64,000 nt of DNA from Isurus oxyrinchus (taxonomy: Eukaryota), in NCBI GenBank assembly GCA_026770705.1, contig JANJGN010000009.1, positions 164,052,001-164,116,000 of the forward strand, written 5' to 3'. Below are positions 1,476 through 61,159 of the stretch, piece after piece; position 1 is the first letter of the stretch; the number at the start of each line of letters is the position of its first letter. The notes under the pieces are model-generated. The model worked only from the letters and a program-made list of their open reading frames with translations. It ran no database searches and was not told the DNA's origin. A program made the position numbers and the translations under genes.

Positions 1476-1787
1476 TTTCAGGTGCATTGTGGGCAAAAAA
1501 AGAAGTAACAGGAGTTGTGGGAAGAGCGATCACAATAGAATGTCACTATGATGCACGTTACAAGTCACATATAAAATATTGGTGTTGCGGCTGGAGTCGC
1601 CAGTGTAATATTTTAGTATTGAAAAATCAGCAAAATGGAAGAATATCGATCACAGATAACAAGGCAACAGGAATATTTATTGTTACTATGGAGGATCTTC
1701 ACTCAAGAGATACAGGATGGTACAGCTGTGGTATTGACAAACCTGGCCTCGATTCAATGTTTGCTGTCTGGCTACAAATATCTTACG
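1476..1787 (+). CDS. Gene A (inhibitory CD300/pIgR/MDIR-like receptor), V-type Ig domain exon
   Basis: Acceptor ctcag| (an alternative phase-1 acceptor gives start 1482), donor TACG|gtacat, phase 1-1, 312 nt. Translates VSGALWAKKEVTGVVGRAITIECHY...KYWCCGWSRQC...DTGWYSCGID, with the CD300/pIgR C-x-Y, KYWC-x6-C extra disulfide and D-x-G-x-Y-x-C motifs. Confidence 0.93.
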
Positions 1788-13040: not shown

Positions 13041-13370
13041 AACCCGTGTCTGTTCCTGTGCTTAGATTTTCATCACCAGCAAATGTCTCATGTTCTGGGG
13101 GTTCAGTGTCCGTCTCCTGTGAGTCTGTCCAGGGATCCCTTCCCATTCAGTACACATGGTATGAAAAGACCCTGTCTGAAGATTCAAAGATCTCTGACAC
13201 CAATAAACTGGATCTACATTGTCAATCCTTCAAACAGCAACATCATCAATATTACTGCACAGCCTCGAATAATCAGGGAGTAAAATCCAGTGACACTGTC
13301 ACTGTTAACTCAACACTCATGAATGTAACAACGAAAAGCTACAGTTATGTGATACAAATTGGAAACATTG
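13041..13370 (+). CDS. Gene A, C2-type (FCRL-like) Ig domain exon
   Basis: Polypyrimidine tract + ccaacag|, donor ATTG|gtaagt, phase 1-1, 330 nt. Translates EPVSVPVL...VSCESVQGSLPIQYTWY...QYYCTASNNQGVKSS. Confidence 0.93.
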
Positions 13371-15695: not shown

Positions 15696-15813
15696 GACCT
15701 GAGTATTTTTGTGATGTTTCTACAACAGTATCACCAACTACACATTTGACAAGTACAGATATAATTTCCACTACCAATCGATCCACACCTTCAGATCCCG
15801 AAAATGCTGAAAG
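15696..15813 (+). CDS. Gene A, Ser/Thr-rich stalk exon
   Basis: ttccacag| ... GAAAG|gtacaa, phase 1-2. Translates GPEYFCDVSTTVSPTTHLTSTDIISTTNRSTPSDPENAE. Conserved in the second copy. Confidence 0.88.
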
Positions 15814-17310: not shown

Positions 17311-17399
17311 TCTGATTTACATTGTGCTCGGAGTGCTGGGGGGCATTCTTGTGGTGTTTGCTGTTTCTCTACTTCTGTACCTGAGGCAAATCAACAAGG
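17311..17399 (+). CDS. Gene A, transmembrane exon (uncharged)
   Basis: tgtttcacag| ... AAGG|gtgagt, phase 2-1, compatible with neighbouring exons. Translates SLIYIVLGVLGGILVVFAVSLLLYLRQINK. Confidence 0.92.
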
Positions 17400-19489: not shown

Positions 19490-19542
19490 GTACAAACTGC
19501 ATTCCAAGTCAGCGGAGAGACAAGACTCTCCATTATAATCAG
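19490..19542 (+). CDS. Gene A, first cytoplasmic exon
   Basis: atttttcag| ... CAG|gtaagg, phase 1-0, which exactly bridges the TM exon and the last exon. Translates GTNCIPSQRRDKTLHYNQ. Confidence 0.8.
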
Positions 19543-20172: not shown

Positions 20173-20484
20173 GAATTGGCAGCAGAGGAAGAGGGCACTG
20201 TGTATGCAAATGTAAACCACACTCAAAGGAGCTCGGCAGGAACACACAGAGAGGGAACTGCCGAGTTGAATAATGAGGAAATCACATATGCAGCAGTGCA
20301 ATTACAAAAGAAATCGTCTACACAGAGAGGTGAAGGGACAAGTCACTCAGTTAACAACCCGGACAGTGTCATCTACAGTGGAGTCATGATTCACAACCAG
20401 CCCACAAAGAAAAACCCTAAAACTCCATTACATGATACTCCCCAGGAATCTGAAATGGCAATTTATGCTACCGTTACTCATTAG
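20173..20484 (+). CDS. Gene A, terminal cytoplasmic exon with ITSM/ITIM motifs
   Basis: atttag| phase 0, ends at TAG. Contains TVYANV, ITYAAV, VIYSGV and AIYATV. Confidence 0.93.
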   Translation, partial: ELAAEEEGTVYANVNHTQRSSAGTHREGTAELNNEEITYAAVQLQKKSSTQRGEGTSHSVNNPDSVIYSGVMIHNQPTKKNPKTPLHDTPQESEMAIYATVTH

Positions 20485-34569: not shown

Positions 34570-35105
34570 GAGGAGGCTGAGGTGGAGGAAGTAGCTGAGG
34601 AGGCTGAGGTGGAGGCAGTGACTGAGGAGGCTGAGGTGGAGGCAGTGGCTGAGGAGTTTGAGGTGGAGGCAATGGCTGAGGAGGCTGAGTTGGAGTCAGT
34701 GACTGAGGAGGTTGAGGTGGAGGTGGTGACTGAGGAGGTTGAGCTGGAGTCATTGGCTGAGGAGGCTGAGGTGGAGGTGGTGACTGAGGAGGTTGAGGTG
34801 GAGGCGGTGACTGAGGAGGTTGAGGTGGAGTCAGTGGCTGAGGAGGCTGAGGTGGAGGTGGTGACTGAGGAGGTTGAGGTGGCGTCAGTGACTGAGGAGG
34901 TTGAGGTGGAGGCAGTGACTGAGGAGGTTGAGGTGGAGGCAGTGACTGAGGAGGTTGAGGTGGAGGCAGTGACTGAGGAGGTTGAGGTGGAGGCAGTGAC
35001 TGAGGAGGTTGAGGAGGAGGCAGTGACTGAGGAGGCTGAGGTGGAGGCAGTGACTGAGGAGGCTGAGGTGGAGGCAGTGACTGAGGAGGCTGAGGTGGAG
35101 GTGGT
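34570..35105 (+). repeat. 27-bp minisatellite inside the 305-aa acidic ORF 34477-35394
   Basis: About 20 units of the same repeat. Confidence 0.95.
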
Positions 35106-35959
35106 TGCCGAGGCGATGGAGGTAGTGAATGTCGGGGTGGAGGAGGAGACATCAGCAGCGACAGCAGCAGAGACAGTGACTGAGGCTGAGGAGGGGGAGG
35201 CAGCGGCTGTGACAGTGACAGAGGGAGAAGCAGCGAAGGCGGCAGCAGCAAAGGCTGAGGCCACAGTGAGGGAGGCTGTGGAGAGGGAGGTGGAGGTGGG
35301 GCAGAGGCAGCGAGGAGACGGTACGAGACCAGGAGCAGCAACAAAACCTGCCTTGTGGTTTGTGAGGCTCAGGGCAATGGCGACTATGAGTTGATATCTT
35401 CCATGTGCCATGTGTGTGTCTCCGAGTCAGCGCACCGGACCACACTGCTTCTGCCCGATTAGGGCGCTTCAGTGGAGTCCGACACCAGTCCAGTGCCACC
35501 CAGCTCCCATTCCCGAGGACAGGTGATGGAACCTGCCCAGTGCCAGGATGAGCTGCTTGGTAAGATCGGGAGGTGGGAAGTAGAGAAGGCAGCCGACCAG
35601 GAAAAGCTGGAGGATATCTCCAGGATTACTGACTGTCTCCAAGAAGAAACTCTTGTAGCCTTCAGGCAGGGTATATATATGTTTATATAGCTGCAATTTA
35701 AAGTTACCTGCCACATCCCTTTTAACACTTTCTAATGCAGCATCGCTCTGATCAGAATCAGATTTATTGGGGTTGTGCAAATGTCTCCCCAGCCTCTGAT
35801 ATAACATTAAAAAGCTGCTTTTTCCTTTCCAGTTGCAGTAAGAGGACTGTCCCAGCCTCTCAATGTGACAGGGCAGCCCAGGACTATGTCTCTCAGGAGC
35901 CTCAGCCTTTACAATTGTTCTACAGGTCTGAACTTTTCTCAGCTTGTTTGGACAAGAAC

Positions 35960-38900
35960 AGCGGGTGAGCAGGGGGGATGAGCGAACTGACCATGGTACC
36001 ATGGCACAGGAAGTCATCCAAGTGGGGGGAGCAAACAGGAATGTAGCGGTAGTGAGGGATAGTATAGTCAGAGGGATTGACACCGTTCTCTGCAGCAAAC
36101 AGCGTGAGTCCACACGACCATGTTGCCTGCCCGGTGCCAGGGTGTGGGATGTCGGCTCAGGGCTAGGGAGGAACTTGCATTGGGAGGGGTAGCACCCAGT
36201 CATCGTGGTCCATGTAAGCACCAACGCTATAGGCAGCACAGAGAAGGAGATTCTGCACAATCAGTGTGAGGAACGAGGCACCAGATAAAGAAGGAGAACC
36301 ACAAAGGTCATAACCGATGGATTATTACCTGAGCCATGTGCAAATTGCCACAGGACAAATCAGACTCAGGAGGTGAATGTGCCTCAAAGGCTGGTGTGGA
36401 AGAAGTGGGTTCTGGTTTGTAGGGCACAAGAACCAGTACTGGGGAAAGTGGGATCTGTACCATTGGGATGGTCTACACCTGAACCGTGCTGGGACCAGTG
36501 TTCTTGCAAGCCACATAACTAGGGAAGTAGAGAGGGTTTTAAACTAAATAGTGGACAACAGATCATATTCGGGATAATGTTGTAATTCAAGGAGCAGAAA
36601 CAAGTCAAAAGATAAAGGTATTATTAGGAAAAATGAAAAACAGACACTGACAAAGGGGGATAGAGAGAACAAATCTAACAGTAAATCAACAGATGAAACT
36701 ACAAGTTATAAAAAGCATAAAAGGATAAATCTAAAAGCTCTGTATCTGAATGCACATAGCATTCAAAACAAAACAGATGAACTGAGAGCACACATAGAAA
36801 TAAATAATTACAATTTGATAGCCATTACGGAGACATGGCTGCAGGAGGACATGGATTGGGATGTGAATATTGAAGTGTACAGGGTACTTAGGAAAGACAG
36901 GAAGCGAGGAAAAGGTGTAGCGGTGGCTCTGTTAGTGAATGATGGTATTAGTACAAGAGAGGAAGAAATAATTGGAGCTTGTCAGAAAGTCATGGTGATA
37001 ATCATGAGGGACTTTAATTTACACATAGACTGGAAAAGTCAGATGGCCAAAGATAGCCTTGCTGAGGAGTACATCGAATGTTTTCAAGATAGTTTCTGAG
37101 AACGGCATGTTCTGGATTCAACCAGACAGCAGGCTATACTAGACCTGCTATTGTGCAATGAGATGGGAGGAATTAACGATCTCACCATGAAGATACCCCT
37201 AGGAAATAGTGACCATAATAGGATGAATTTTACATTCAGTTTGAGGGAGAGAGGAGTGGGTCTGAGTCTAAGGCGGGGATTTTTGGGCCCTGCTGCTGGT
37301 GGGACTCGCTGTGGGGGAGGCAGTTCCCCAGCCAGAAGCCCCACTGACTTGCGACAGGACAGGAAGGGCCGGCGAGCGGGTGTGGAAAATCCCACTGTAA
37401 GTTTTTAAACTTTAATAAGGGCAATTATAAGGACATGAAAGCTGGGATGGCTAAAGTGAATTGGCAAAATAGGTTAAGGGACAGGTCAATCGAGATGCAA
37501 TGGCTCATATTTGAGGGGATATTTCAGAATGCACATTCCAACGAGTAAGAAAAAGTCTAAGTGACGGACACACCATCCGTGGTTAACTTGAATGTTTAAA
37601 CATAGTATCAAAATCAAAGGAAAAGCTTATAATTCTGCAAAGAGAGGTGGCAGGTCAGAAGATTGGACAGAATAAAAGGAACAGCAAAGAATGACTAAAA
37701 GACTAATAAGAAGGGAAAATTTAGTTTATGAGAGAAAGGTAGCCAGGAATATAACAACAGATAGGAAGAGTTTTTATAAGTACGTAAAAAAGAAAAGAGT
37801 GAACAAAGTGTGTGCTGGTCCTATAGAAGGTGAGCCTGGAGAATTGATAATGGAAAACAAGGAGATGGCAGATGAATTGAACAGGCATTTTGCACTAGTC
37901 ATATTGAAAATGTTAGAAGCTATTATTAAAGAAATTATAGCAGGACACTTGGATAAGGTCATGGTCATCAGGCAGAATCAACATGGTTTTGTGAAAGGGA
38001 AATCTGTTCAACCAGTTTTTTGGAGTTCTTTGAGGAAGTAACATGTGCGGTGGAGAAAGGGGATCTGGTGGATGTACTGTACTGAGGTTTCTAGAAGGCG
38101 TTTCATAAGTTATTGTGGAAAATAAAAGCTCATGGTATAGGGGGTCACATACTGGTATGGATAGAAAATTGTCTGGCTAACAAGAAACAGAGAGTAGGCA
38201 TGAATGAGTCTTTTTTAGTTTGGCAAGATATAAGAGTGTTGTGGCACAGGGATCATTGCTGGGACCTCAACAGTTTGCACTTAATATCAACGACTTGGAT
38301 GAAGGGTTTGAAGGGATGGTTTCTGAATTTGCTGATGACACAAAGATAGGTAGAAAGTAAGTTGTGAGGGGGACATAAGGAGGCTACAAAAAGATATAGA
38401 TAGGTTTAGACAGTGGGCACTGATCTGGAAAATGGAGTATAATGTGGGAAAATGTAAAATTGTCCATTTTGGCAGGAAGAGTAAAAGAGAAGCATGTTAT
38501 CTTAATGGTGAGAGATTGCAGAGCTCTGAGGTGCAGAGGGATCTGGCTGTCCTTGTGCATGAATCACAAAAGGTTAGTATGGAGATACCGCAAGTAATTA
38601 GGAAAGCTGATAGAATGATTTCATTTATTGTAAGGGAGATTGAATTCAAAAGTAGGGAAGTTATTCTTCATCTGCATAGGGCACGAGTGAGACTACATTT
38701 GGAGGACTCTGTACAGTATTGGTCACAATATTTAAGGAAGGATGAAATGCATTGGAAGAAGCTCAGAGAAAGTTTACCAGGCTAATACCAGGAATGGGTG
38801 GATTGTCTAATGAGGAAAAGTTGGACAGACTAGGCTTCTATCTGCTGGAGTTTAGAAGAGTAAGAGGCGAATTGATTGAAACATATAAGTTCCTGAGGAG

Positions 38901-39075
38901 ACTTGACAGGGTGAGTGCAGAGAGGATGTTTCCTCTTGTGGGAAAATGAGGGGTCACCAATTTAGAACAGAGATTAGGTGATTTTTTTGAACTCAGAGGC
39001 TCGTGAGTCTTTGGAAATCTCTTCCTGAAAAGGTGGTGAAGGGGAGGCTTCGATTATTTTTAAGGTAGAGGTGGA
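35960..39075 (+). mobile_element. Degenerate, internally deleted CR1 LINE (ORF1 esterase, APE endonuclease, RT); MITE-like insert at ~37270-37396
   Basis: VAVVRDSIVRGID..CCLPGARV (SGNH esterase ORF1), IAITETWLQ (APE), QHGFVKGKS, FADD, YNVGKCKIVHFG. Confidence 0.88.
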
Positions 39076-40262: not shown

Positions 40263-40302
40263 ATGATGTGGATTTTGATTCTCCTCATTAGTTCTCTGCC
40301 CG
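40263..40302 (+). CDS. Gene B, signal peptide (leader) exon
   Basis: ATG ATG TGG ATT TTG ATT CTC CTC ATT AGT TCT CTG CCC G|gtgagt. MMWILILLISSLP joins in phase 1 to VSG-ALW of the V exon, giving a classic signal peptide. Confidence 0.9.
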
Positions 40303-40409
40303 GTGAGTGACAGCCAGAGCTGGATGTTCCGATATTCTGAGTTGGTTTAACTCTCGTGCGCTGGTTATACAGGAGATGTTTAAATATTTGGAGACATGCA
40401 AAGGCACAA

Positions 40410-40700
40410 GAGAGGTCTTGGGCACAGTGGGTAGTGTCTCTGTACCTGAGCCAGAAGCTCTGTGTTTGAGTCCCACTTCTGTTCTTGTTGAGAATGGAAG
40501 GCGCGTTCTAACCAGGACCAACAGATTGATTATCAACCTGAAAATCTACCAACAGACCGAAGGCTGGTGGTAAGAGGGTTTGAGATCCGAGTCCAACATG
40601 ATTGATGTGGAGTGGTGCCGCTCATTCTGTTGTCTCCGGAGGTTAGTGACCTGTTCCAGGGAAAACAAGCTTTGGAAAGCAAAAGTAAACATGTGCTTTG
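40410..40700 (+). mobile_element. tRNA-derived SINE in gene B intron 1
   Basis: ggcacagtgggtag A box; gtttgagtccc B box. Confidence 0.5.
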
Positions 40701-42161
40701 ACTGCCGCATCCGTCTCTAGATGTGGGAAGTCTCCTAAGTCTAAAGGCACAAAATAGTCAGCAAAACCAAATGAGTAATAATTGTGAAGTATTTTATTAC
40801 CCTGTGAATTAACTATCACAACATGGGAATAGTTAACAAATAAACTGAACTGCATTATTAATTATGAATGATAAATAAAGGAGAATTAAATTTTCAGAAA
40901 GCTATGCAAGCAACATTTTGAAAATGAAAACCTTTTTTAATTGGTAATTTTCAATATAATCTGATGTCCAGTATAGACTGAAGACTGCAGCGGTAATAAT
41001 CCCACAAATAAAACATGTCCCAAGTTGGCGAATATTTCTGTTTTTGAAAGTACAGTTGATGAAATATTGTGTTATGAGGCTCTCTCAGTGACACTGTTCC
41101 TCACTGGTAGATGGTTGGTCTACATCACTCTTCTCATAAGTAGCCTTTTCTTGTTCATTCTTTAACTTTAAAAAACTAGATTTTGCTCATCACTCAGTAT
41201 TGCCACCTCTCCATCATTTCGATGAATCTATTTTATAACACACAATGTTAAACTCCCAGCCCCATCTGCTCTTAACCACCTCCCCAAAATAGTTTGTGCC
41301 TCTAGCTGATCAATTTTATGCAGAATACTTGATGTACTTATGGACAGGAAACTGAATCATGTTTCTGTCTGTTTGGCAATCTTCTTCTTTTCAATCCTTC
41401 CTCTTTCTGATCTGATCTCTTTCCCATTCCCTTTACATCTGTAACTTTCCCTGTATCTTTTTCCTTTCCTTCATTTCTCTCTAGCCATTTAATTATTTTC
41501 AATCTCTCTTTTGTTATTTTAGTGCAAACTCTTTCCCCACAGCATGAGTTTCTCTCCCAGCAAGGCCATTGGTCTCATGAACGTTCAAGTCAAGGCATCC
41601 AAATCCCTACCTCAGGAATCCATCCATACTGTAAGGCCACCTATCACACAACCTCGCAAACTTTCAAGACCTTCAAATCCTACCTTTGGACATCCCTAAC
41701 TCATTCAAGATCTGAACAACCCCTCCTGCAAGGACACAACCCTACCCCGCACCCCACCCACCTCAGATCAGAGCAGGGAACTGTCGGCTCCTGTGACCAC
41801 CTCCACACTGCTCCCCAGCCGACTGCAAATCAGGCCTGTCAATCAGACTGGTTTCTGGCTGTGGAACCTCCTGATGATGTCATACGCAGTCTAGGGTGAA
41901 ACCCCAAAATATGAGGCAGAACCCCAATTTCCAGGTTCCCTCACTCTACTAGCCCCTGCCAATATGTCAAGAAAATGTCCCAATTATCTCACGAGTATAT
42001 CATTGTCTGAGACGTGCTTTGGAACCACAGTGAGGCTCTGATAAGTGTCTATATGAATGATTACTCTCATCACAAACTGGATGGAATTTAACTCATTAAA
42101 ATGCATCTGTTTGAATTAAGCAGTTATTTCCAGTTCAGTTTCTCAAATGTTGTCTCCTCAG

Positions 42162-42476
42162 TTTCAGGTGCATTGTGGGCAAAAGAGAGAGTAACAGGAG
42201 TTGTGGGAAGAGCGATCACAATAGAATGTCACTATGATGCACAGTGGTACAAGTCACATATAAAATATTGGTGTCGCGGCTGGACTCGCCAGTGTAATGT
42301 TGTAGCATCGACAAATTGGCGAAATGGAAGAATATCGGTCACAGATAACAAGTCACAAGGATTATTTATTGTTACTATGGAGGATCTTCACTCAGGAGAT
42401 ACAGGATGGTACAGCTGTGCTATTGAAGTAACTGGCCACGATCCAATGTTTAATGTAAAGCTACAAATATCTTACG
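42162..42476 (+). CDS. Gene B (activating-type CD300/pIgR/MDIR-like receptor), V-type Ig domain exon
   Basis: Same splice sites as gene A, 315 nt. Translates ...IECHYDAQWYKSHIKYWCRGWTRQC...GDTGWYSCAIE. Confidence 0.93.
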
Positions 42477-43336
42477 GTACATTTCTTACTGATTTTCTTT
42501 ATTACTCTCGACTGAAATGTCTGCTCAATGTTTTATCTGGGAGGAAACATGACAGCTCCGATATCCCGAGGCTCCACAGCAATGCAGAGTCTTAAAGGTA
42601 AAGGGCAGTGGTCGGGAAATCCGACTCATGTTACCCAAACCCAATTCATGGCCTGTCAAACATGTCAGAATTGAACTTTACAAGTGAACTAAACGGAAAT
42701 TGAGAAGTTGTTTTGATGGTAAAAGAAGCCTCTTTATTAATTGTTGAGACATTGGGCTGGATATTCAGCCTCAAAGCGGGTAGGGGCAATTCGGAAAATT
42801 CCCCGCTCGGCCTTGGAAGAAAGTGCCCACAAAGGTGGGATTCCCATTGCTGGGAGCTGTGCCCGGGCTGCAGTCTGGCCAGCCACACCAGGAAGAAATG
42901 CAGAGGCAGCCACAGGGGCTGCCGGCTGCGGAGACGGGCTGTTTAAAAGGCCCCTCCTTAATGCCCTTGGACTTTGTAACAGCTAAACTCAAAACACAAA
43001 GGCCCTTCACCCCTCACCCCTCACAGCCCCCAAAGGGGGTGGATGTGAGGGGAAAATTTGTCATGAGGGGGCTTGGAGGTGGGTGGAAGTGTACAGCTTG
43101 AAGTCAGGAGCATGAGGGGGTATAAGGCGTGGGTATAGGGATAGAGGGGGAACGAAGGGCCAAGCGGGTTGGATGGGGGTGTGACTTGACATAGCGGGCA
43201 TGAGATGCACCTTTTGAACTTAGCTGTTAAAAGATCCCCTCATGCAGACCAGTGTTTACAGCTCCTCTGAGGGGCTTTGGACTACGACTCAATCAAAACC
43301 TGGCCCGAGTCCATGAAAATTGCAGAGGAGTCGGAC

Positions 43337-45455
43337 GTCACTTTGGTCTGAAGGCTGCACAAAGCACAGGGTAGAGGCCCTGGACTAAGACACCTGCCTT
43401 TATCTTGTACAGAAAGTGTTCACATGTGAGTGACATGAACATTGCTCATCAAAACAAGGAGCGATAGGCAGGGAGACATTCTTTGGAGTTTATTGACAAT
43501 AATGAACAGTATGTACAAGTGATTAACACCCGTGCCCAGGACGTGAAACTACTTCTCCTCAACCACGCGGTGTCTGGCAGCACTGTTGAGACCTTCTGTG
43601 CTCGGTGGGTGACCACGGGGGTTGGGGTCCTTTATCCAGCCTCTTAATCACATTTTGGTTTGATGTTGTAAGTGTCCTTTAAATCATGTCTTTGGTTTTG
43701 CAGTGACCCTAACTTAGGGGCTGCGTTTTATATTATCCCTCATTTTGTTAATTTAGTTTATTGGGTTGGCTTTAAAAGAGCTACATCTTCTCAACTTTCC
43801 TAATCCTCCCGCTACATCTTGGTGCTCCGCAGACATCCACAGTGGAGGTAAAGACAGTCTGCTGACTGCTATGCTCTGTCTGTGATAACTTTGGCGGGCA
43901 TCCTCTGGAGGCCTGAGGCCTGTAGGGCCCCGGCTTCCTTTCGAGGTCCTACTGTGTGGCATTAGCACCCTCCTTTTCCTGTGGACTGGGAGCTGTCCAG
44001 GTCACAGTAAGAGGGGAGTTACCAGGATGAATGGCCCCGGAGGGTACACATGTTGATCCTTCTCGCTATGGGTACCCAATGGCCATTGGCTGAATCCTTG
44101 AGGAGCAGGTGTAGCTGGAGTGAGATCGAGCTGCCTGCACCCCTCTCGCATACACACTGTCAGGGGCCAACTATACATCAGCAATGGAGTTCAGCCCTGC
44201 AGCAGTGTAGGAACGATGCCCTGGACCAACGTCTCCATGGCAGCTGCCATCCTACCAGTGTTGACCTCGGTGCAGTGACATGCCGGCGCTATCACCTCAG
44301 AGTGCAGGCGGACGGACTCCTCCATTGTGCCTTGCAATCTGAGGGGTGCAGCAGATATCCCTTCCTGATGTTCCCGCGTTGGCCTTTCCAGCTCCAGCAA
44401 CTGTGACATGACCAAATCCAGAAACGCGTCACCTGACTCGAACTCAGCAAATTTATGGCCTCCAGCTGCCCACTGAGTGCCGGACACCTGGGAAGCCCCT
44501 GCCGCTGCCAGCTGTGGATCAGGCAGTGCAATTTGCTCACCAGCTGTGACCCTGAGTCTACTCTAAAGCTAGATCTCACCGAGGGGTGTACCTCTGCACT
44601 GGTGGAGGGTGTGGGTGAGGGGAGTGACGGTACATCAAGGAGGGTCCCTCCAGGTTCCTCTTCAGAGATTTCTTTGGGGATTACTTGGTGTCCCTGGTTC
44701 TCCATCGGCTGTTTCCCAGATGTGCGTGTGGAAGCAAGTGGAAATATTTTGTGCATGGCAGTGGCCTGTGAAACAGGACACATCACTCACAGCATGGTTG
44801 TCTGATGGATGTTGCACTGCTGGACCCTCACTTGGCTGAGCACCGCAGACCTCACCGTCAGAACAGGATTGGTCCAGGCCGTTGCCGGCCAGCTGGATGG
44901 CTCTGTTTACAAAGTACTAGTACTGTTCGGGAACATGATGTTCATATTTTCATACATGTCGCTGAATTTGTCAGTCACATTTATGCCTCTATTATCAACC
45001 AAAGAGCGGGATTGTCCCCGATTTGCACTAAGTGCGTTAGTGGGCGGGGGAATCGATGTTTTACACACCGGCCACAATGGGGGGTTTTCAGGCCGCATCG
45101 TCCCAAACCCAACGCATTAGTTATGCATTCCCGGGAAACATACCATTTCCATGGTGAGTGGGATCTCATTCACCCCAAACACCATCATTTCACTGCTTCA
45201 TCAGGCCCAGCACCATATGTAAAGTCCAGCCTCGTGCACACATCTCAGTGTTTCCAACCCAGGACCACTGCAGGGAAGATATCCCCAAGAGGCAAAAAGA
45301 CTGTAGCTCCCAGGTTTAGTGAGCTGTCACTGCAACACATTGTGTACACTGTGGGGGCCCTGCTGTGATGTCCTCTACTCCCACTCTGGCTGCAGTATGG
45401 ACAGCGCTGTGACCAACCAGGCCTGGGAGGCGGGGGCAGCAGTGGTATACCCACT
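43337..45455 (-). mobile_element. Harbinger-like transposon fragment with a single Tx1-like insertion at 43564-43780
   Basis: Homologous to 57435-58790. Myb/SANT-like start RGKKTVAPRFSELSL on + at ~45290. The Tx1 piece is flanked by CTACTTCTCCTCAAC / CTACATCTTCTCAAC. Confidence 0.72.
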
Positions 45456-47444
45456 GAATGTTATTAAGTTAACCCTCACTGTCAGATAATGTAAACAGTA
45501 TGAAAAGTGTGGATGAGAAACCCTTAGAAACTTCCTTGCTGGATGGAAACAAATGCTGGAGAGAATGGAAATTTCTAAATGAAATGAGTGGATGCCTGAT
45601 TGTTTTAGAGAATGAAATGCAGGTACAACAAATTTTTTAGGGATCTGAGGAGAGGGCTATCTTGCAATATGATGAAGTATAGAATATTGAGATTCTTAAT
45701 TCAATTTGTTTCACACTTTTTGGTCACCATATTAACTGAAAATTTTATTTAAATGAGAGAAGGTCATCATCTAATCGTTTATTAATTGTGTTTAATTGTA
45801 TGCAGTGGTGGCATTAATTGGTGATTCACTTGTGCACCTATAAACAGATGCAGACTGAAACTGCGGGTGGTGGATTTGATTAGATTCACACAGTAAACAG
45901 CACTTTAAAACAGTTCCACAAGTCTTAACCTATCTAACCTCAGAGCTAATCTTTCTCTTTTCCGTTCAGCAACTAACACTGTAGATTTAAAAAGCTATAG
46001 AAGTGCAATAATTTTACCACACAGTGCTTTCACATTGGGGTGTCCACTGACAGAAACTGGGTCTTCAGGTCTGGGCCTTGTACACACTGTCTCCTGGGAA
46101 TTCTGACCTGCTACCCTGCTGTCTTCAGGGAGATCTGGCCAACCATCCTGCTGTGTTCTGGGAGATCTAAGCAGCTACCCCCTCACATAGGCTTCAGTAT
46201 TCCCTTAAATGTGTTTCTTCTCTTTCATCTCTCTTTGTAGTACCCAGTCTGTTCAGAAATGCTTTTATCCCAGGATTGATTAAATCAATCTTTACTTTAA
46301 TTCTTAGACTTGTAAAAACAAACGTACCCTATCTTTATGTCACTTCATGACACCTTTTTACAACCTGCATATATCCCCCTTTGAACTAAAACAACTTAAT
46401 TCAAACTATTCCTGTTATTGCTTCATGTACAAATCTGTTGAAGTTCTTTTTTGTTCATTAACATATCAAAACCACTTCTTACTGTTGACTTTTGACCCTA
46501 TCCACTGATGAGGCAGTCCACGTCATGGAACCATAACCTTAAATCTGGAGATAGGCTCGTCAGGGATGTCAGGAAGCACTTCTTCACGCAAAGTATAGTG
46601 GAAATCAGGAACACTCTCCTCAAAAAAGCTCTTTAGTTCAATTGAAAATTTCAAAACTGATTGACAGATTTTATCTGGTAGCAATATTCGGGTTATGGGA
46701 CCCAGGTAGGTAAATGGACAGAAGATACTGGTCAGTTGGGATTTAATTGAATTGTGGAACAGGCTGAAGGGGCTGCATGTCCGAATCCCTTTTCCATGTT
46801 CTGGAGCCCCAGTTAATTTTTCAGTGGTCTGGGCCTTGTGAGTAACAATGTGCTGTGAAACAAGCTCACAAACAGTTAGCATTTCAAAGAGACACTTTCC
46901 AATCACCAGGCAAACTGTGACCTGTGTTGTTTCAGAGTACAGTTTGTGACAGTGAAAGCAGTGAAGGCCTGCCAAACCTCACTAAAAATGTTGGTGAAAG
47001 TGTCACTTTTCTCTGGCTAATCCCTTGACCAAAGAGGGAATTTTAATTCCCCTCCCCCATCCTGCATCGGGTTGAAGCATGATGGGATTTGCTGGATCCA
47101 GAACCTTCTCCAGCACAGCTTGTGATCCAGGAGACACACGAAAGCTTCACCCCCACCCCCAGGCAAATGTTTTATACAATTTCTCCCTCCCCATGATTGG
47201 CCAATCCTGCCCCAAGCAGCAAAGTCACCCTGACTCCCTCCTCGCTGCTGTGCTCCGAGGACAAATTCCCACCAATTTCTCCCATGTCCAGTTCCCAAAC
47301 CCAAATTTAACATCCACCCCATAGAGTGGTAGATGTGTTGGTGAGATTCCAACATGGCAGAGCCTGGCTGAGATGAAGTGCAAAGTTTGAAGACTATTTG
47401 ATTATTAAATGTTCAGTATCTGAATGTTTCTTTCTTTCCAACAG

Positions 47445-47774
47445 AACCCGTGTCTGTTCCTGTGCTTAGATTTTCATCACCGCTAAATGTCTCATGTTCT
47501 GGGGGTTCAGTGTCCGTCTCCTGTGAGTCTGTCCAGGGATCCCTTCCCATTCAGTACACATGGTATGAGAAGACCCTGCCTGAAGATTCAAAGATCTCTG
47601 ACACCAATAAACTGGATCTACATTGTCAATCCTTCAAACAGCAACATCATCAATATTACTGCACAGCCTCAAATAATCAGGGAGAAAAATCCAGTGACAC
47701 TGTCACTGTTAACTTAACACTCATGAATGTAACAACGAAAAGCTGCAGTTATGTGATACAAATTGGAAACATTG
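47445..47774 (+). CDS. Gene B, C2-type (FCRL-like) Ig domain exon
   Basis: ccaacag| ... ATTG|gtaagt, 330 nt, 5 amino-acid differences from gene A. Confidence 0.93.
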
Positions 47775-50098
47775 GTAAGTGTTACTTTCTACAAACAATG
47801 TGGCGAATGAATGTCTTAAATTCATGTCTATCGAAACTGGTCACTGTTTCAGTTCCTTCAGTCAATCTGAGAAATTGCAACTGGCCAAATTCACTCTCTC
47901 TGGTTCCTCAAACATTCTGAACAAGGTCACTAAGTTGCATTTTTCATGAAAAATGGACAGGATCAGAAAATATCCCCAAAACATGCAAAAATATTGCAGA
48001 ATCTCCAACAAACCCATCGAATCAAAATAGCATTTGATTGACAGAGCTTTCATAAAGCAATTTGTCTATTTCCAGCAGATGGAATTGTGAAATGCAACCT
48101 CCAACTGTTGTGTCCTAGTTTGGGAAGGATATCACTGATAGAATAGAGAAGAATTGAATTAAAATGAACCCTTGGATGAGAGGTTTTAGTCATGAGGAAA
48201 GTATCATCACAACTGAGGTGAATGACCAGCTGGAGGACGTGGAAATTGTTAGAAATTTGGATAAGGTAACTCTAACTATTTCCACTAGTCAGTGAGTCAG
48301 CAACAAGAGAGCATTAACTTTAAAATTATCACTAAAAGGACAAAGGGAGAAATTTGGAGAATTTTATTGATGCAAACTGTTTTTAGGACATGGAATGCCC
48401 AACTGAAATAAGTTTACAAACAAATTTAATAATAGATTTTAAAAGGGAAACAAATGTATGAGGGTGTGGGAAAAGGACAATGAAATGGAATTAAATGAGG
48501 AGATCATTCAGAGAACCAGCATTGGAGCGATGGGCTGAATTCCCTCCCCTGTGTTGTAAAAATTCCATCATTCCGGTCAATATCTCAAATTATCCTGTAT
48601 AAAAAATTTGTTCCCTCCCCATAAAACAATGACCCTGGTTCTGACATAAGGAGGGCTTTAGCCTATTTGAATGTAGCGGTTCAATTTTCTGCAGAGTGGG
48701 TGCAGCATGTTCACCGAGAAACACCAACATGGGCACAAAACAAAGAGAATCACATTTTCACCTGAGCAGCAGGAGACAGGAATTTACATATGCAAATATA
48801 TTGACTCTGGTCATGTGGTCTCTTGCCTCAGTTGTCAGGGAAGAAGGGTGGAATTTTACACCCCCATTGCGCCAGGGACTGGGCTGTAAAATGCAGCCAG
48901 CCATTCTAAACTCCATGCACTCCAGCAGGACCATAAAATCCCACTGTCACAAGGCTCTGAGCAAAGGCTGTCAGCAGCAGGTAGAAATTACCCCTGTAAA
49001 CTGTGTTTGTACTGGAGTTGTCAGCAGGGACTCAGTTCCACTCTGACCTTTGATGCCAGTCTTTTGTAGTTACAAGTTCCCCTTAAGAATTAAAATTCAG
49101 GCTGATACCACTGTCCAGCACTGAGGTAGTGCTATACTGGTGGTGGTGCTGCTGTGTAGATGAGGTGTTAAACTGAGGATCCACATCCCCCTTAGGTAGA
49201 TGTAAACATTTCCAGGGTATTATTCACAGAATAGGGAAGTTCTCCTGGTGTCCTTGAAGCCTTTATTCCTCAACCAATACACACAAATTGGGAGCAGGAG
49301 CAGGCCACTTGGTCTTTTGAGCCTGTTAATGTCACTACAAAACAGATCATCTAGTGAATGTTTTACTGATGTTTGTGGGGCTTTATTGTGTAGGAATGAA
49401 CTTCCACGTTTCCCAACATTAAAACTTTGGCTTTACTTCAAAAAAGTACTTCATAGGCTCTGAAGCACTTTGGAATATCCCAAGGTTGTGAAAGGTGATG
49501 AATCAGCACAACTTGTTTCTTACTTTTTGAAACAAACCATTTATTAAAATACATCTGAACCAATTATCTGAGTGCAAACTGCAGGGGGGGGAGGGGGAGG
49601 GAGGAGCCAGTCCCAGCAGCAAGGTGGTCATTATAATTAAATGGTCCGAAAATCACTGGCAGGTTTGAGACATTCATGGTCAGTGGGTGAAGATTCTCAT
49701 CTTTACTGCAAGCTCAGAAAACTGCCCCCAAAGTGCAGAAAGTGACCATTGCCAGTATTAGGATGTGACTGTTTAATGTGTTCACATGAAATTCATGTCA
49801 AGAATGTGTATCTCTGGATTGCAGTCCACCAACTTGAGCCCTTACCAGGCCCACTTCTAACTCTGTCCCACCAACTCTCAGATATAGGAAAGAATGTGGA
49901 ATTACCAGTAAAGATAGATCACCATCAGGTATCAGCAACCTCTCCACTTGTGACCAGAGAGGGGTAAATTACACAGAAATCAATTCTACCTGCCAGGCTT
50001 TTCCTCAATTAATGAGGTTCCATTTGACAATGATGCTCTCTCAGTTGACTACAAGTGAAAATGAGGTGAATCTGAATGTTATTCCCTTGTGTCAACAG

Positions 50099-50216
50099 GA
50101 CCTGAGTATTGTTGTGAAGCTTGTACAAGAGTATCACCAACTACATATTTGACAAGTACAGATATAATTTCCACTACCAATCGAGCCACAACTTCAGATC
50201 CCGAAAATGCTGAAAG
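50099..50216 (+). CDS. Gene B, stalk exon (Cys-enriched)
   Basis: gtcaacag| ... GAAAG|gtacaa. Translates GPEYCCEACTRVSPTTYLTSTDIISTTNRATTSDPENAE. Confidence 0.88.
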
Positions 50217-51560
50217 GTACAATGTTCTCATGGATTGGCATTGCTTCCATATGTGAGAGATACAATTGGCCAAAGGAGTGAAAGTTGTTCATTAATTGTA
50301 AAGTAGCTCATCAGAATGGAAATGGTGGCTGGGTTTATATCATGCTGTTGTGTTAGCTTCTTAATGAGGCTGCATTTTTCTGTTGGAAAATACAAGCAAG
50401 GAGTGAGCTTTTCCATTGTGTTGCCGCTCAGATGGTGTTTTTTGCCTTATTCACCTTGATTACTTCACCGCTAAGGTAACCTCACAGTGTGTGAGGAGTT
50501 GTACTTGTCAAACTTACCTTGCTGCTGTCTACACTGACAGAGTGGTTGTATTTGGGCTGATGAAAAGGAAGAATTAGCGTGATATATCTGCACATCCCTT
50601 GGTTTCACTAATGAGAGACATCTTGCAACTCTGGTCCCGTTTCCATATGATTAGCCTGAGCTGTCGACAATAAGTAGCAGAAATTGTAGTCCGATGTAAA
50701 CACTCAGGAACCGGGTCTTTGAAGTTACAATGGTGATAAAGAGAAAACGCCAACTAAATGTCAAACAGAAAGAGGGACAGTTGGAAATGGGCAGCAGGTA
50801 TGTCCGCAGCTGTGGAGAAAATAAACACGTTCATGGTTTGGGTGCAGACACTTCTTCAGAATTCTAGTCCACACACGAAGCGAAGCAGGTCCACTCACCC
50901 CACAGATCCCAACTGAGCTGCTGAATGTTTCCAGAATCTTCTGTTTTCCATTCATATTTCTAGCACATGCAGTGCACTTACTTTTATCCAGATTATTGTC
51001 AATGATTTAAAAAGTATTGAAAGTCTAGGGTCTGAATTTTCCGCTCGGCGGGGGTGGGGGTGGGGTAGAGCGGGAGCGAGCACGGGCAGCTGTGGACCCC
51101 ATCGCCATCCACCATCGGGTTTTTGACGCCATTTTGCGCGGGCGGCCAATTTAGGCCATCCCAGCGTATTTCCCGGCTCCCGAGGATAGCGGCAGTGGGC
51201 GAGAAGCGGGGGGTGTGCACAGACAACCGGGTCCAATGGTGACCCAGCGGCCTGTTTAAATGAAGGCCTGGCAGCCTGTTCCAGCTGCTCACAATGGCCA
51301 GTGCAAAGAATTTTCACTTACAATTCCGCTTAGCCTTACAGTTAGACATTATGGACATGCTAAAGAAATTTGCTTCGTTTGATTTTTATCTAATGATCAT
51401 GAAGTTGATAAGTAGAACTTTAGTTGATTCTTTCAGCTAAAGTCCCTTGTCTACTTTATGTTGCTGCAAAAAATTACAGTGTAAAGCGGAGAGTCATGTT
51501 TCAAAAATGAAACAGTCTCATTTCATTTAAATGGTTTGATATTTCTTCTCTTTTGCTCAG

Positions 51561-51651
51561 TTACATTATCTGGGATGTGATACGCTGGGTGCTCTTTACT
51601 CTCCTGGTGATTTGTGCTGTTTCGGGCACATGGTGTACGAGAAAATCTAAG
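51561..51651 (+). CDS. Gene B, transmembrane exon with charged residues (Arg, Asp); the downstream terminal exon is unresolved
   Basis: tcttttgctcag| phase 2, matching the stalk donor; donor AAG|gtgaga. Translates SYIIWDVIRWVLFTLLVICAVSGTWCTRKSK. Confidence 0.87.
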
Positions 51652-51696
51652 GTGAGAGTTATGGACTGTATAAGAATCATTATGGGCAGTTTGCAA

Positions 51697-52621
51697 TGTT
51701 ATGATGTGGCAGATGATGTGTGTCAGGCAGACCAAATCCACGAGTGAAACTTGGTCGAGCTGTCACAACGGTTTTGCAATTTATATTTATTATGAGATGC
51801 ATGCACTGAATTCAGACACCATAAGTCTACCAAACTTTTAGAGATTTAAAAAATATATCGTTAAATATATTTATTAGCAAAAGATAGATTTCAATTACAT
51901 ACATAAGTCTACTAATTTCTTCTATAATAACTCGTAAAATTCCTAATTAGCCTCACTCCCAGTTACACCTCCTTTAAGGCAACTGTACAAAGAATAGATA
52001 TTAGGTTTCAAGCAGATCCAGCAAATTGACACAATGATCTAGACAGTGGAATTCCAAATGGCTTTCACCAGCTTCAGTTTCGTTAGACAGCAGGCTTATG
52101 CACAAATGCTGGAGGCTTCATTAAGGCTACTTCAAACACATCTGTTAGGTCTCATATGGACTTCTCCTGACACATAGCCTCATTCTCCTTTATATATGTT
52201 TCCCTCTATTTAACATGTAAACCCTATTGTTTCAGATACCTTTGAAACTGTGTCTTCCTCACAATGTAAAAACTTTCATGTCGATACTATATATTGTCAG
52301 TAACCTTTGAGATAAAGAAACACATTCCTTCATCTTGCTTAGCTGCCTAATTGTAAAGAGACTAAAATACTTTTGAAATCCAAATCTCCCTTCATTTATC
52401 TAAAAAGGCAAATTCCCTTTACACTTTACTTGCTAAACCAGTATCCATGTTTACTCATTAGCATGTCAAATACCTAGCTTCTTTTGTTGAGTTATATCAT
52501 GCCATCTACCTGATTCCAAATGTAATTAAATCTCACACAGACAGACCCAAACACTTACCCCCATAAACCGACTCCACAATAAAGCAGAAAATATTATGAA
52601 AATTATTATACTTTCATGACA
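51697..52621. mobile_element. Probable solo LTR
   Basis: TGTTATGA...TCATGACA ends, flanks gcaa/gtaa. A related diverged copy at ~55806-59703 is split by the Harbinger element. Confidence 0.55.
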
Positions 52622-52731
52622 GTAAATTCTCCATCAATTATTTCAAAAACATTGATCACAGATATTGTCAAGAAAAACTTGCATTGATGTTAAGGTCCAC
52701 AGATTGAAACAAGGTGTTTTACAGATTCTAT

Positions 52732-53650
52732 GGGCAGAATCATCTGAGATTTGCACAAAATGCCGTAGTGAGTGGGAAAAAGGACATCCCGGGTGTGAAA
52801 AAACAGCACAGACCAAGACCCTGATTTCCCAGTTTTTACTGGTGTTCCATGTTAAAGTATATGAGCCCCACTCAGGCCCGTATTCTTATTTCCCATTTTT
52901 TACTGTTTGTCCCTTCTGGGATATTATCCGCCGGCTGCAATGGCAGATTTTCACACCTTATTATCCTATTCCTGGCACATCCCACCTCATTAATTATGCG
53001 TTCACTGGAAACACACCGGGTCGCTGGTGGGAAGGCCTCTGACGCGCCACCCCACCGTCACCTCAGGCCTTCATTTATCCAGACGCCCTATTTAAAGGCC
53101 GTTCCTGCAGAGAGATAGCTCTCTCTAAGGCATCAGAAACTGCTAGGAATTCATAGCTGCCAAAGGGAGGAAACATGTTGCATCCAAAATTGAGCACTGC
53201 CTCCCTCAGCCTACTGGGCACTGTGAGAGCTGCCGTGAAGTCCTCTACCCCAATTCTAGGCGAAGACCAACAAGCACAGCAACAAATCTAGCATGGGTGG
53301 TGGTGGCAGCAGTGGTCAGTGCCAATGCACTGCTAAAGAGGACAGCCACCCAGCGCTGAAAGAGGATGAATGGTCACCTTCTTTTTGCTAGGTTAAATCA
53401 CTTTTCTCATCACTCACAACTCAAAAACCCATCACACATTCACTGGGATCTCACTCAATACCAGTTCAAGGGACATCACCATTCTCCCTCTCACACACAC
53501 CTTCCTCTGCCCTGCCGATCCTGTCTTCATCCATGGCACCACTTACCACCCACACGTGCCGGGTGCCCTCCTCATGTGGCCTGGCAGGCACCCTGCTTAC
53601 GCTCTCTCCATCTGTTTTCCTGCAGAACAAGCTGGATGATGTCAGGGATC
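52732..53650 (+). mobile_element. Harbinger-like left-end fragment with decayed Myb/SANT exon
   Basis: GGGCAGAAT terminus; AWVVVAAVVSANALLKRTATQR*KRMN remnant at ~53291-53371. Confidence 0.65.
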
Positions 53651-53744
53651 TGACACTTACTGAGAATATAGGAGTCACGGACACTCCCTTGGAATCGCAC
53701 GCAGACCCGTGGAAGCTCTTGCTGTTTGTTTAAATATTTCTTGC

Positions 53745-54900
53745 CATTCCATCTCATAATCATCTTTCTCCCTCTTTATTCATTTTTTGGTCATCCGCTG
53801 CTGGTTCCTAAAAAGTTCCTAATCCTCAAGCATACCATTAGTTTTCCCCCCTTTTTATACTTTAGTTGTTGATTGGATACTCTCCTTGACTGCCGTCGTT
53901 AACCATGGGTGGTTCATCCTTCTCATCAAGTCCTTCCTTTTGAGCGGGATAAATTTTTTCTGAGCGTTATGAAATATTTACTTAAATGTCTGCCACTGCT
54001 CACCCACTGACCTTCCTGTTAGTCTATTCTCCCAGCCAACTCTTCCTTCATAACTCTGTAATTGGCCTTATTTAGGTTGAGGACACTGGTTTTAGAGACG
54101 AGCTGCTCACCCTCAAACAGAATTTCAAATTCTACAATGTTGTGTGATCGCTATCCCCTAGAGGATCCCTAACTACACGATCTCTTATGAATCCTACCTC
54201 ATTACGCATTGCTAGATGCAAAATAGCCTGTTCCCAAGTAGGTTATGCAACATATTGCTGAAAGAAACTATCCTTGGTACACTCTACAAATTTGTCTTCC
54301 AAGTTAGCCCTGCCTATCTGATTTCTCCAGTCAATATGCAGATTAAAATAATCCATGACAATTGTAGAACCCTTCTTACATGCCTACATTATTTCCCAAT
54401 TTATGCTTTGTCCTACAGTGAGCAAACTCTTTGGAGGCCCATAGATGAGTCCAACGCATGGCTCGTTCCCCTTACTAATTGTTATTTCTACCCAAACTGA
54501 TTCCACATCACGATCTATGCCAGCTATGTCACCACCGCACTGATACCTTCATTTATTAACAAAGCTACCCCACCTCCTTTTCCTTTTTGCCATTTTTTCC
54601 GGATTGTCGAATACCCTTGAATATTGAATTCCCAGTCTTGGTCACCCTGCAACCATGTCTCTGTCATGGCTATCAAGTCATATCCATATATTTCTATTTG
54701 TGCCGTCAACTCATCTGCCTGCATTCAGATAACATGCCTTAAGCTTGGATTGTTTACCATTATTGCTCATTCTGGTTCTCATTTCTGCTGCACTCTTCTG
54801 CTCCTTGTCCTGCCCCTTCTCATCATACTTTGATTACCATTCGCCTCTTCACTACCCTGTACTTCTGCTCTCTCATTTCCTTTAGATGTTTTAAACTTCC
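53745..54900 (-). mobile_element. CR1 LINE endonuclease-region fragment
   Basis: YDLIAMTETWLQGDQDWEFNIQGY...KGGGVALLI. Confidence 0.82.
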
Positions 54901-56593
54901 CTTCAATTGTCCCTGTTACTATGATCCCATGTAACCCATCCATAATAGAAACATTCCATAGTTTAATCTAATCTTCCAAAATAATCGATACAAGAAAAGG
55001 AAGCGAGGAAATGGAGGCAGAATCTAACAGAGCACCAGGGATGATTGTTTTTCAACAAGAACACAAGGAGACGTAAAATTATACAGACTGCAACAGGAGA
55101 CTGAGATACAGACCCAAGAGAATTGTTACTGGAAGCAGCAATTGCACTGTATAAAATATATTTAATAAAGTAGCCACAGCAATCAATTTCTACCCAAAAC
55201 GCCAGTTGCAGGGGAACATTAGTTACCCATGAGAAAATGGTGTTACATCTCTTCAAGAGGGGCACAACTGATAACTTTTCCCAGCACACATGCAATGGGT
55301 GAGGAGTGTGATGTTGCCACAGCTCCAGCTCATCACAAGCTTTGCCTCGATTTGTCGGCATAGCCAGAATTCTGTTCACATGTAAAATAATGCATCGTTC
55401 TCAGTCTCAATTAATCTGGTGATTTTCAGTTCCAGACACTCAACGAATCAGATCCTCACAGCTTGACCTAAGAGGGAAAATGAAGATTCCGGGGTTACAT
55501 CTACATTGATGGAATTTTTCATCCTGACAAAATATTCATTATTCGTCGAGCTTTGAATTTCTTTTAATAATTCTACAGAATAAAAATCGATTTTCTCATC
55601 AAATAATTTTGACCATTAAATTAGTGGAGCAATCAAAAAGCAAAATGATGGCTGCGAACTTCAAATTGTATATCTACATCCTGACAATAATTTCTCTGTT
55701 TGCTGCCTTAGTGTCTACACAACTTTATTTCTTGTTTTAAGACTATCAAATTCTTTAAGAAATAAGCAACTTGAAAAGTTCATTTATTGGAAACCAATCG
55801 CTTCATATTATGATGCAGCTGAGCTAAATGCTGAGCGGTTCAAATCCAGGAGGGAAACTTGAACCAACTGTCATAACTAACTGTTGCAAATTGTATGATG
55901 AAGGTGCAGGCTTTAAATTCAATAGTAATAAGACGACTGAGTCTCAACAGGTTTTTATAAAACTAAATTAAACATTTATTAATACAAGAAAGATTGTGAG
56001 CACATGCATATGTTGACAAAATTACTACTATAATGTCTACAAAAATCCCCTAATTAATCTGGCTCCAAGTTATACCTCCGTTAAGGCATCAGTAAAACAC
56101 ATGGATTTAAACAGACCCTGGGCAAAGCTCACTCTGGACAGTCACATTCAAATTGAGTTTCTTTCAGCTCTGGGTCTTTGCAGACAGCGGCTTGAGGCTT
56201 ACGGACTGGAGGCTTTAGTTCTTAGAATCGCTCTCCTTTTTACCAACAGCCTTCTAATCCTTTTTACATATTTTTCTCTTTGAATGCAATTTTCATTCTA
56301 CCACTATTTCATTTGAAATTTTAACACTTCAAATAATAAGACACTTTCATGCGACCCACTTTATTAGTAATCCTTGGGAAAAATAAACAAACACACAGTT
56401 TCTGAGCTTCACCTGGTTAGGTGTAATATTTCACACCATCTCTGAACCCAAGGTAGGGGAGTTAGTTTAAAGAAAAAATGCAAATTGCCCCCATATTTAC
56501 CTAAGTAACATTTCAAACCTACTCCTTTTCTATACATCAAAGCCTCTAGACAAGCTGGCTTTAATCCAATTAGGACACACACACACACACAGA

Positions 56594-60770: not shown

Positions 60771-61159
60771 CTCTACTGGATTCTACTGGACATCAGAAAT
60801 CCAGTAGGGATTCCAGTTGCTTCAGCTAAATTGAGCTGGAACCACAGCACCTGTTCCCAATTGGACTAGGAGTCAGAGAGGGACAATGCAAGAACTGGGG
60901 CATAAACTCTCATTCAATGGGTGGTGCAGTCTGAGGAGGACCTGAGAAGGCTTCGAGAGAAAGGTGGGAAAGTGGGAGAAAGGGAGACAGAGTCAGAAGC
61001 ATCCGTTACATTTTCCCCAGAGTTGGTCACTCTGGCAGGATCAGCATCAGCCTCAGGGAAGGAGGCAACAGTGGAGGAGACGACAGTGGCGGAGGTGGAG
61101 GTGGCGATAGCAGCGGAACTGAAGGTTGCAGTGAAGTCAGCAACAACAGTGGAGAAGGA

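What the first reader, a model, noticed from the sequence alone, without database searches (positions are those of the whole stretch)
13041..13370. Hybrid architecture: CD300/pIgR-type V domain joined to an FCRL-type C2 domain
The V domain carries the CD300/pIgR/Fc-mu-R family signature. The second domain has the PVS.PVL...C....GSLPI.Y.WY...YYC.A.N..G...S pattern typical of FCRL/PECAM-type C2 domains, plus extra Cys (NVSC, LHC) and a C-terminal extension. Mammalian CD300s are single-V, and both domain families include Ig-binding receptors. Inference: a candidate shark Ig (IgM/IgW/IgNAR) or lipid receptor, relevant to Fc-receptor origins.
Basis: partly seen in the sequence, partly recalled or inferred. 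Interest (0 to 1): 0.7.

Follow-up and report, generated by a model that had tools for sequence, protein, structure and literature searches.

The report
Inhibitory MDIR in shark paired-receptor array
This is the second exon of a shark immune receptor of the already described MDIR family, one of 27 near-identical inhibitory and activating-type copies in a tandem array, and it likely senses lipid-type ligands rather than antibodies.

Summary
In detail: 13041-13370 is a C2-type Ig exon, spliced to a CD300-type V exon at 1476-1787. The hybrid is not new. [quoted passage not shown] A chimaera record named MDIR2 has the same V-C2-TM-tyrosine-tail layout. The gene is a 416-aa inhibitory-type receptor with four tyrosine motifs. 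It lies in a roughly 1-Mb array of 27 mapped genes, 12 inhibitory and 15 with an Arg-type TM exon; identical V domains occur on both tail types. 'FCRL-type' is only a resemblance: the C2 matches FCRL5 D4-D9, not the IgG-binding D1-D3, and scores equally with fish CD22-like domains. The V domain lacks the pIgR D1 CDR1 motif but keeps most residues of the CD300lf metal/phospholipid pocket. Verdict: a new member of a known family, likely a CD300-like lipid or pathogen sensor; an Ig receptor is unlikely.

The parts
1476..1787 (+). Gene A, V exon (CD300-type V-set, second disulfide in the CC' loop, CDR3 loop matching CD300lf). The leader exon lies about 400 bases before the window.
13041..13370 (+). 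Gene A, C2-type Ig exon with a predicted beta-strand extension (the finding)
15696..15813 (+). Gene A, Ser/Thr-rich stalk exon with one Cys
17311..17399 (+). Gene A, uncharged transmembrane exon
19490..19542 (+). Gene A, short cytoplasmic exon
20173..20484 (+). Gene A, last exon with four ITIM/ITSM-like tyrosine motifs (residues 322, 350, 379, 409 of 416) and the stop codon
40263..40302 (+). Gene B (activating type), leader exon
42162..42476 (+). Gene B, V exon (type II, 76% protein identity to gene A V)
47445..47774 (+). Gene B, C2 exon (95% protein identity to the finding)
50099..50216 (+). Gene B, stalk exon
51561..51651 (+). Gene B, transmembrane exon with an Arg near its outer end; 57% identical to the TM of skate MDIR5
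55430..55471 (+). Gene B, last exon: 13-residue tail without tyrosine

Best explanation
The exon is the membrane-proximal C2 domain of an inhibitory-type MDIR (leader-V-C2-stalk-TM-four tyrosine motifs) in a tandem array of paired receptors; its V domain likely binds a CD300-type ligand (metal-bridged phospholipid head groups on cells or microbes), its C2 likely acts as a spacer, and its tail would recruit SHP-type phosphatases. Sister genes carry the same or similar ectodomains on an Arg-bearing TM and would signal through an FcR-gamma or CD3-zeta adaptor. Shown here: gene structure, splicing of sister transcripts, family membership, the array, shared ectodomains, pocket residues. Inferred: ligand, spacer role, phosphatase and adaptor use. 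Odds: MDIR identity 0.95; inhibitory signalling 0.85; lipid-type ligand about 0.5.
For: Family: C2 77%/74% and V 64%/63% to skate MDIR3/MDIR5; window C2 inside a 100/98 MDIR clade; 16 single V-C2 proteins with two or more tyrosine motifs among the 144 homologues examined, from sharks, rays and chimaera. Pairing: 27 genes, 12 inhibitory and 15 Arg-TM type; one V protein is shared by 5 inhibitory and 3 activating genes, another by 2 and 2; the activating form is spliced through C2, stalk, TM and last exon in probable RNA contigs; zeta/gamma-family TM exons exist in the genome. Ligand site: CD300lf is the top structural match (rmsd 1.3-1.5 A, 38-39% identity, modelled on a white-shark relative) and top single-domain sequence match (72 bits against 47 for the best pIgR domain). 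The CDR3 loop aligns without gaps with CD300lf 88-107, keeping K94, G96, D98, M100, residues that PMC6166816 names in metal and phosphocholine binding (passages). In the array G96 and M100 are kept in 27 of 27 and D98 in 26 of 27. V varies in its loops (22 of 35 loop sites against 14 of 66 framework sites), with pN/pS 1.78 against 0.49 for the C2 core.
Against: No binding or signalling was tested. The pocket-floor Trp89 of CD300lf is Ser in 27 of 27 copies, and the CC' loop is one residue shorter, so the Y34/R42/C44 mapping rests on spacing, not on a printed alignment. Across 184 parsed homologous V domains, 61 lack an Asp at the end of CDR3. The 95% bootstrap interval of pN-pS for V includes zero (-0.004 to 0.065), copies are not independent, and I drew the loop limits after seeing the alignment. 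Loop diversification fits protein ligands as well as lipids. Expression of this exact copy is not shown.
Confidence: 0.55

Rival explanations
1. The paired receptors bind a protein ligand: a self protein for the inhibitory form, mimicked by a pathogen protein that the activating copies evolved to catch.
For: Identical ectodomains on opposite tails, loop-centred variation and V pN/pS above 1. CD300lf itself is engaged by a viral capsid through the same pocket (PMC6166816, abstract and passages).
Against: The metal-binding loop residues are held constant while their neighbours vary. No ligand evidence. Not exclusive of the lipid model.
Confidence: 0.3
2. The protein is a shark immunoglobulin (Fc) receptor.
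For: The V domain hits pIgR domains and weakly FcmuR; best PDB sequence match of C2 is FCRL5; the array shares a chromosome with an IL10-family exon 15 Mb away; PMC4016189 found no pIgR or FcRL homologue in early shark assemblies (passages), so the role is vacant.
Against: The pIgR D1 CDR1 motif seen is absent (0 of 184 parsed homologous V domains; its role in Ig binding is recalled). V scores lower with pIgR D1 (36.5 bits) than D5 (47.1) or CD300lf (72). C2 scores 2.2 and 0.7 bits on FCRL5 D1 and D3 and did not match D2, against 21-36 on D4-D9; D1-D3 suffice for IgG binding (PMC12757038, passages). A fast-varying V with many paralogues is not expected for a constant-region ligand (inference).
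Confidence: 0.08
3. The array is inflated by assembly error, or many copies are dead, so the pairing pattern is partly an artefact.
For: Some copies are very alike (31 of 325 pairs at 99.5% or more in the intron before V). Five of 18 hits to the activating last exon lack the AG acceptor, and two genes carry a duplicated C2 with a partial stalk. The DNA runs laid differed from the window by several percent and gave no copy number.
Against: No pair is identical in the intron before V (0 of 325) or after C2 (0 of 406); medians 96% and 97%. There are 16 distinct V proteins in 27 genes. Both tail types occur across sharks and rays, and a type I V is spliced to C2 in contigs.
Confidence: 0.07

Closest known systems
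Skate MDIR3 and MDIR5 (modular domain immune-type receptors; P0072, P0069)
   Same: Same V and C2 subfamilies (57-64% and 58-77%), same V-C2 module with extension Cys, tyrosine-motif tail as in MDIR3, Arg-bearing TM as in MDIR5.
   Different: MDIR3 is V-V-C2-V-C2 and MDIR5 is V-C2-V-C2 by my reading of the sequences; the window genes have one V-C2 unit and sit in a recent, highly homogeneous array.
Callorhinchus milii record named 'modular domain immune-type receptor 2' (AFK11143.1, P0278)
   Same: Same layout: leader-V-C2-extension-stalk-TM-tyrosine motifs, 405 aa.
   Different: Only 45-46% identical per domain. The name is the depositor's; skate MDIR2 itself was not retrieved.
Mammalian CD300 (CD300lf/CLM-1; CD300a/c pair)
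   Same: V fold with two disulfides, CDR3 metal loop, inhibitory and activating pairs.
   Different: CD300s are single-V; their activating forms use Lys and DAP12 (recalled). NHERF-family markers of the CD300 region lie on C22 and C15, not C9.
FCRL5 membrane-proximal domains (D4-D9), PECAM1-type and CD22-type C2 domains
   Same: Shared start motif and GS-x-PI-x-Y loop, about 30% identity.
   Different: No supported sister grouping; MDIR C2 has extra Cys and a strand extension; different chromosome from the PECAM-like gene.

Membership tests
MDIR | Ig domains of the MDIR subfamilies (sequence clade with skate MDIRs) | tested here: met
   C2 74-77% and V 63-64% to MDIR3/5; 100/98 clade.
MDIR | Modular V and C2 ectodomains on a type I membrane protein | tested here: met
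   Exon model and splice evidence; same module in P0069, P0072, P0278.
MDIR | Multigene family with activating and inhibitory forms (as stated in PMC3031540, passages) | tested here: met
   27 genes, 12 inhibitory and 15 Arg-TM type; literature statement.
MDIR | Identity with a specific published type (skate MDIR1, 2 or 4) | tested here: inconclusive
   Those sequences did not appear in three homologue searches and the original paper is not held. A chimaera record named MDIR2 has the same layout.
CD300 | V domain with YWC motif and second disulfide | tested here: met
   27 of 27 array copies; Foldseek top hit CD300lf.
CD300 | Single V ectodomain | tested here: not met
   V-C2 join.
CD300 | Metal/phospholipid pocket residues | tested here: inconclusive
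   G96, D98, M100 and probable R42 kept; W89 replaced by Ser. Binding not testable here.
CD300 | Position in the CD300 region (next to NHERF1; recalled) | tested here: not met
   EBP50_C hits on C22 and C15 only; one marker family tested.
pIgR / Fc-alpha/mu-R | D1 CDR1 Ig-binding motif (role recalled; motif seen) | tested here: not met
   Absent in genes A and B and in 0 of 184 parsed homologous V domains.
FCRL | Ig-binding D1-D3 type domains | tested here: not met
   2.2 and 0.7 bits on FCRL5 D1 and D3; mean 2.6 bits against D1-D3 types.
FCRL | C2 descends from the FCRL D5-type clade | tested here: inconclusive
   Mean 27.6 bits to D5-type against 27.7 to fish CD22/CEACAM-like; best tree joins MDIR weakly to the latter (82/67); AU p 0.275. 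Mammalian PECAM1, MILR1 and teleost LITR were not in the tree.
Fc receptor (function) | Binds immunoglobulin | not testable with these tools
   Needs a binding assay.

The most novel reading that the evidence does not exclude
The array is the missing cartilaginous-fish Fc receptor system: V domains that bind shark IgM, IgW or IgNAR by a non-pIgR surface, on paired inhibitory and FcR-gamma-coupled tails, surviving on the linkage group (NFYA, FOXP/MDFI, IL10 family) that also gave the TREM and pIgR clusters, with a C2 that shares ancestry with FCRL spacer domains.
Probability: 0.08. Interest if true: 0.75.

Novelty: new member of a known kind. Interest (0 to 1): 0.3.

Why it matters
The hybrid architecture itself is known. 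What this locus adds is modest but usable. MDIRs have no ligand that I could find in the held literature (searches returned one relevant paper). The kept CD300lf pocket makes a specific test: lipid binding that depends on Ca2+ and the CDR3 Asp. The array gives natural matched pairs, with identical V domains on inhibitory and activating tails, for studying paired-receptor evolution in sharks. Its position 1.9 Mb from NFYA and on the IL10-family chromosome bears on the common origin of the TREM, pIgR and CD300 families, but only at linkage-group level.

Tried and rejected
The original MDIR paper (Cannon 2006, PMC3701310) and a related review (PMC2823954) are not held. What I say about that paper rests on the citing paper PMC3031540 (passages) and on sequence records; its figures may already show this exact type. 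Skate MDIR1, 2 and 4 were not retrieved. The two-domain fold left C2 unresolved (pLDDT under 50); the C2-only model was confident (87), but fold searches gave only generic Ig matches (no Foldseek hit at E 0.001 or better; best Z 9.1 to CD22, many ties), and the absence of FCRL D5 among them shows nothing. No listed run is on record as RNA. DNA runs X15 and X16 gave no copy number. A 10-base candidate micro-exon near 16745 was rejected because the stalk and TM exons already join in phase. Tight synteny with the TREM region was not found: NFYA 1.9 Mb, FOXP/MDFI about 10 Mb, IL10 family 15 Mb, APOBEC2 about 40 Mb away. A motif scan of 40 kb and 70 kb of flank found no further Ig exons, and immediate neighbour genes were not identified. 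The atlas search gave only generic Ig clusters. Two look-ups of earlier findings returned nothing. Left out of the 27-gene count: one inhibitory gene without a mapped V, one V-TM gene without C2, and the more diverged genes at 163.13-163.29 Mb.

Full report
Observation. Pfam calls it an Ig domain (Ig_3, Ig_2, Ig_C17orf99, each near cut-off), and 1478-1786 a V-set domain. A contig from a probable RNA run passes from 1786 directly to 13040, and a second run of the same sample carries both exons. That transcript differs slightly from the window copy, so it shows the splice for the family, not for this copy. The full model is leader (just outside the window), V, C2, stalk, uncharged TM and two cytoplasmic exons: 416 aa, one terminal stop, four tyrosine motifs. 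A second gene in the window (40263-55471) has the same ectodomain plan, an Arg in the TM and a 13-residue tail; its C2-stalk-TM-tail splices are seen in contigs.

Family. The C2 search returned 144 proteins; the 120 listed are all from cartilaginous fish, the closest from white shark and basking shark (up to 86-87%), and include records named MDIR3 and MDIR5. Window C2 is 77% and 74% identical to these, V 64% and 63%, and the gene B TM 57% to that of MDIR5. Both skate proteins are built of V-C2 units. A Callorhinchus record named MDIR2 has the one-V, one-C2, tyrosine-tail layout, and 16 of the 144 homologues examined share it. PMC3031540 (passages) describes MDIRs as multigene activating/inhibitory families resembling CD300, TREM, FCAR and pIgR. 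The primary paper was not available; that it also noted FcR-homolog-like domains is my recollection only.

Array. The genome holds 34 C2 matches and 39 V matches between 163.13 and 164.47 Mb of contig C9. I mapped 27 genes with leader, V, C2 and TM in 163.33-164.27 Mb: 12 inhibitory and 15 with the Arg-type TM exon, of which 12 read in frame in my models. There are two main V types, and both occur on both tails (type I: 7 inhibitory, 3 activating; type II: 4 and 11). Eight genes share one V protein (5 and 3) and four share another (2 and 2). This points to exchange of ectodomains between tails by unequal crossing-over or conversion (inference). Introns are 96-97% identical at the median with no identical pairs in two of three intron sets, which argues for real copies. 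Some activating copies look damaged.

The C2 domain. Its best PDB sequence match is FCRL5, but to D4-D9 (21-36 bits), not D1 or D3 (2.2, 0.7 bits); D1-D3 are what bind IgG (PMC12757038, passages). FCRL5 domains were also the best non-MDIR scorers against an MDIR profile (52 bits, against 38 for fish CD22/CEACAM-like). Pairwise means, however, are equal (27.6 and 27.7), the tree joins MDIR weakly to the CD22-like group, and MDIR plus D5 is neither found nor rejected. In this genome an FCRL query scores higher on a multi-C2 gene on C22, which I recognise from memory as PECAM1-like, than on the array. So 'FCRL-type' is a fair description of a motif shared by several spacer domains, not a shown descent. 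The domain is conserved across the array (pN/pS 0.49). The extension is predicted as a long G strand plus one more strand. Among 258 distinct homologous C2 domains, the E-strand Cys is present in 248 and the extension Cys in 215; the first extra Cys goes with a stalk Cys (72 of 76 stalk-followed domains against 43 of 104 V-followed ones). I infer two extra disulfides: E strand to extension, and A' strand to stalk. Gene A has Tyr at the extension Cys and an extra Cys in V, so it may form other bonds or dimers (untested).

The V domain. By fold and sequence it is closest to CD300lf. Its CDR3 aligns without gaps to CD300lf 88-107 and keeps K94, G96, D98 and M100, which PMC6166816 places in Ca2+ and phosphocholine binding. 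Trp89 is Ser. The pIgR D1 CDR1 motif is absent. Variation among copies is concentrated in loops (22 of 35 against 14 of 66), with pN/pS 1.78, though the interval for pN-pS touches zero.

Mechanism. Most likely the V domain binds a metal-bridged lipid head group or a mimic, the C2 and stalk lift it off the membrane, and the tyrosine motifs recruit SHP-type phosphatases. The Arg-TM sisters would couple to an FcR-gamma or CD3-zeta adaptor; TM exons of that family are in the genome, although PMC4016189 found none in early shark assemblies. All of these signalling and ligand steps are inferred from known families.

Position. NFYA lies 1.9 Mb away, FOXP and MDFI family genes about 10 Mb, an IL10-family exon 15 Mb and APOBEC2 about 40 Mb, all on C9; NHERF-family hits are elsewhere. 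From recalled mammalian gene orders, this is the linkage group of the TREM and pIgR clusters, not of CD300; local order is not conserved.

Verdict. Real feature, known family, new member. The Fc-receptor reading is unlikely (0.08). The paired array and the kept lipid pocket are the useful additions. Interest 0.3.

Noticed in passing
G000:C9:148590785-148591039 (L124:785-1039): A lone CD300/pIgR-type V exon lacking the B-strand Cys, about 160 kb from an IL10-family exon; this is where pIgR, FCAMR and FCMR lie in mammals (recalled). A better positional candidate for a shark pIgR-locus gene than the array.
   Followed up: partly
G000:C9:164326000-164469000 (L107-L117): At least five diverged V exons without C2 partners directly after the array; one resembles the Callorhinchus single-V 'CMRF35-like' protein P0273.
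   Followed up: partly
L141, L142, L143: One CD3-zeta-like and two FcR-gamma-like TM exons (assignment by recalled motif), although PMC4016189 reported no gamma chain in sharks.
   Followed up: partly
G000:C22:8645001-8730000 (L144-L147) and C22:18457370: Multi-C2 gene, PECAM1-like by recall, whose domains score higher against FCRL5 than the MDIR C2 does.
   Followed up: partly
P0005, P0009, P0020, P0039, P0042, P0062: Several long database models run through a TM segment into a new leader and ectodomain, so some 'multi-domain pIgR-like/FCRL5-like' shark annotations are fused neighbouring genes.
   Followed up: partly
window 1586-1588 and about 13340: Type I ectodomains have an extra Cys in the V CC' loop, and 9 of 10 have lost the extension Cys of C2, leaving odd cysteine counts.
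   Followed up: partly
G000:C9:163703314-163708896 and 164129360-164134941: Two activating-type genes carry a duplicated C2 exon with a truncated stalk exon between.
   Followed up: no
window 1476 and 1482: Two in-frame AG acceptors six bases apart at the V exon; the contig uses the first.
   Followed up: partly
window 34705-35896 and 61152-62343: A 1.2-kb block with internal tandem repeats recurs at 95.6% identity in each intergenic unit; decayed LINE-like sequence appears to follow at about 36000-39000 (by eye).
   Followed up: no
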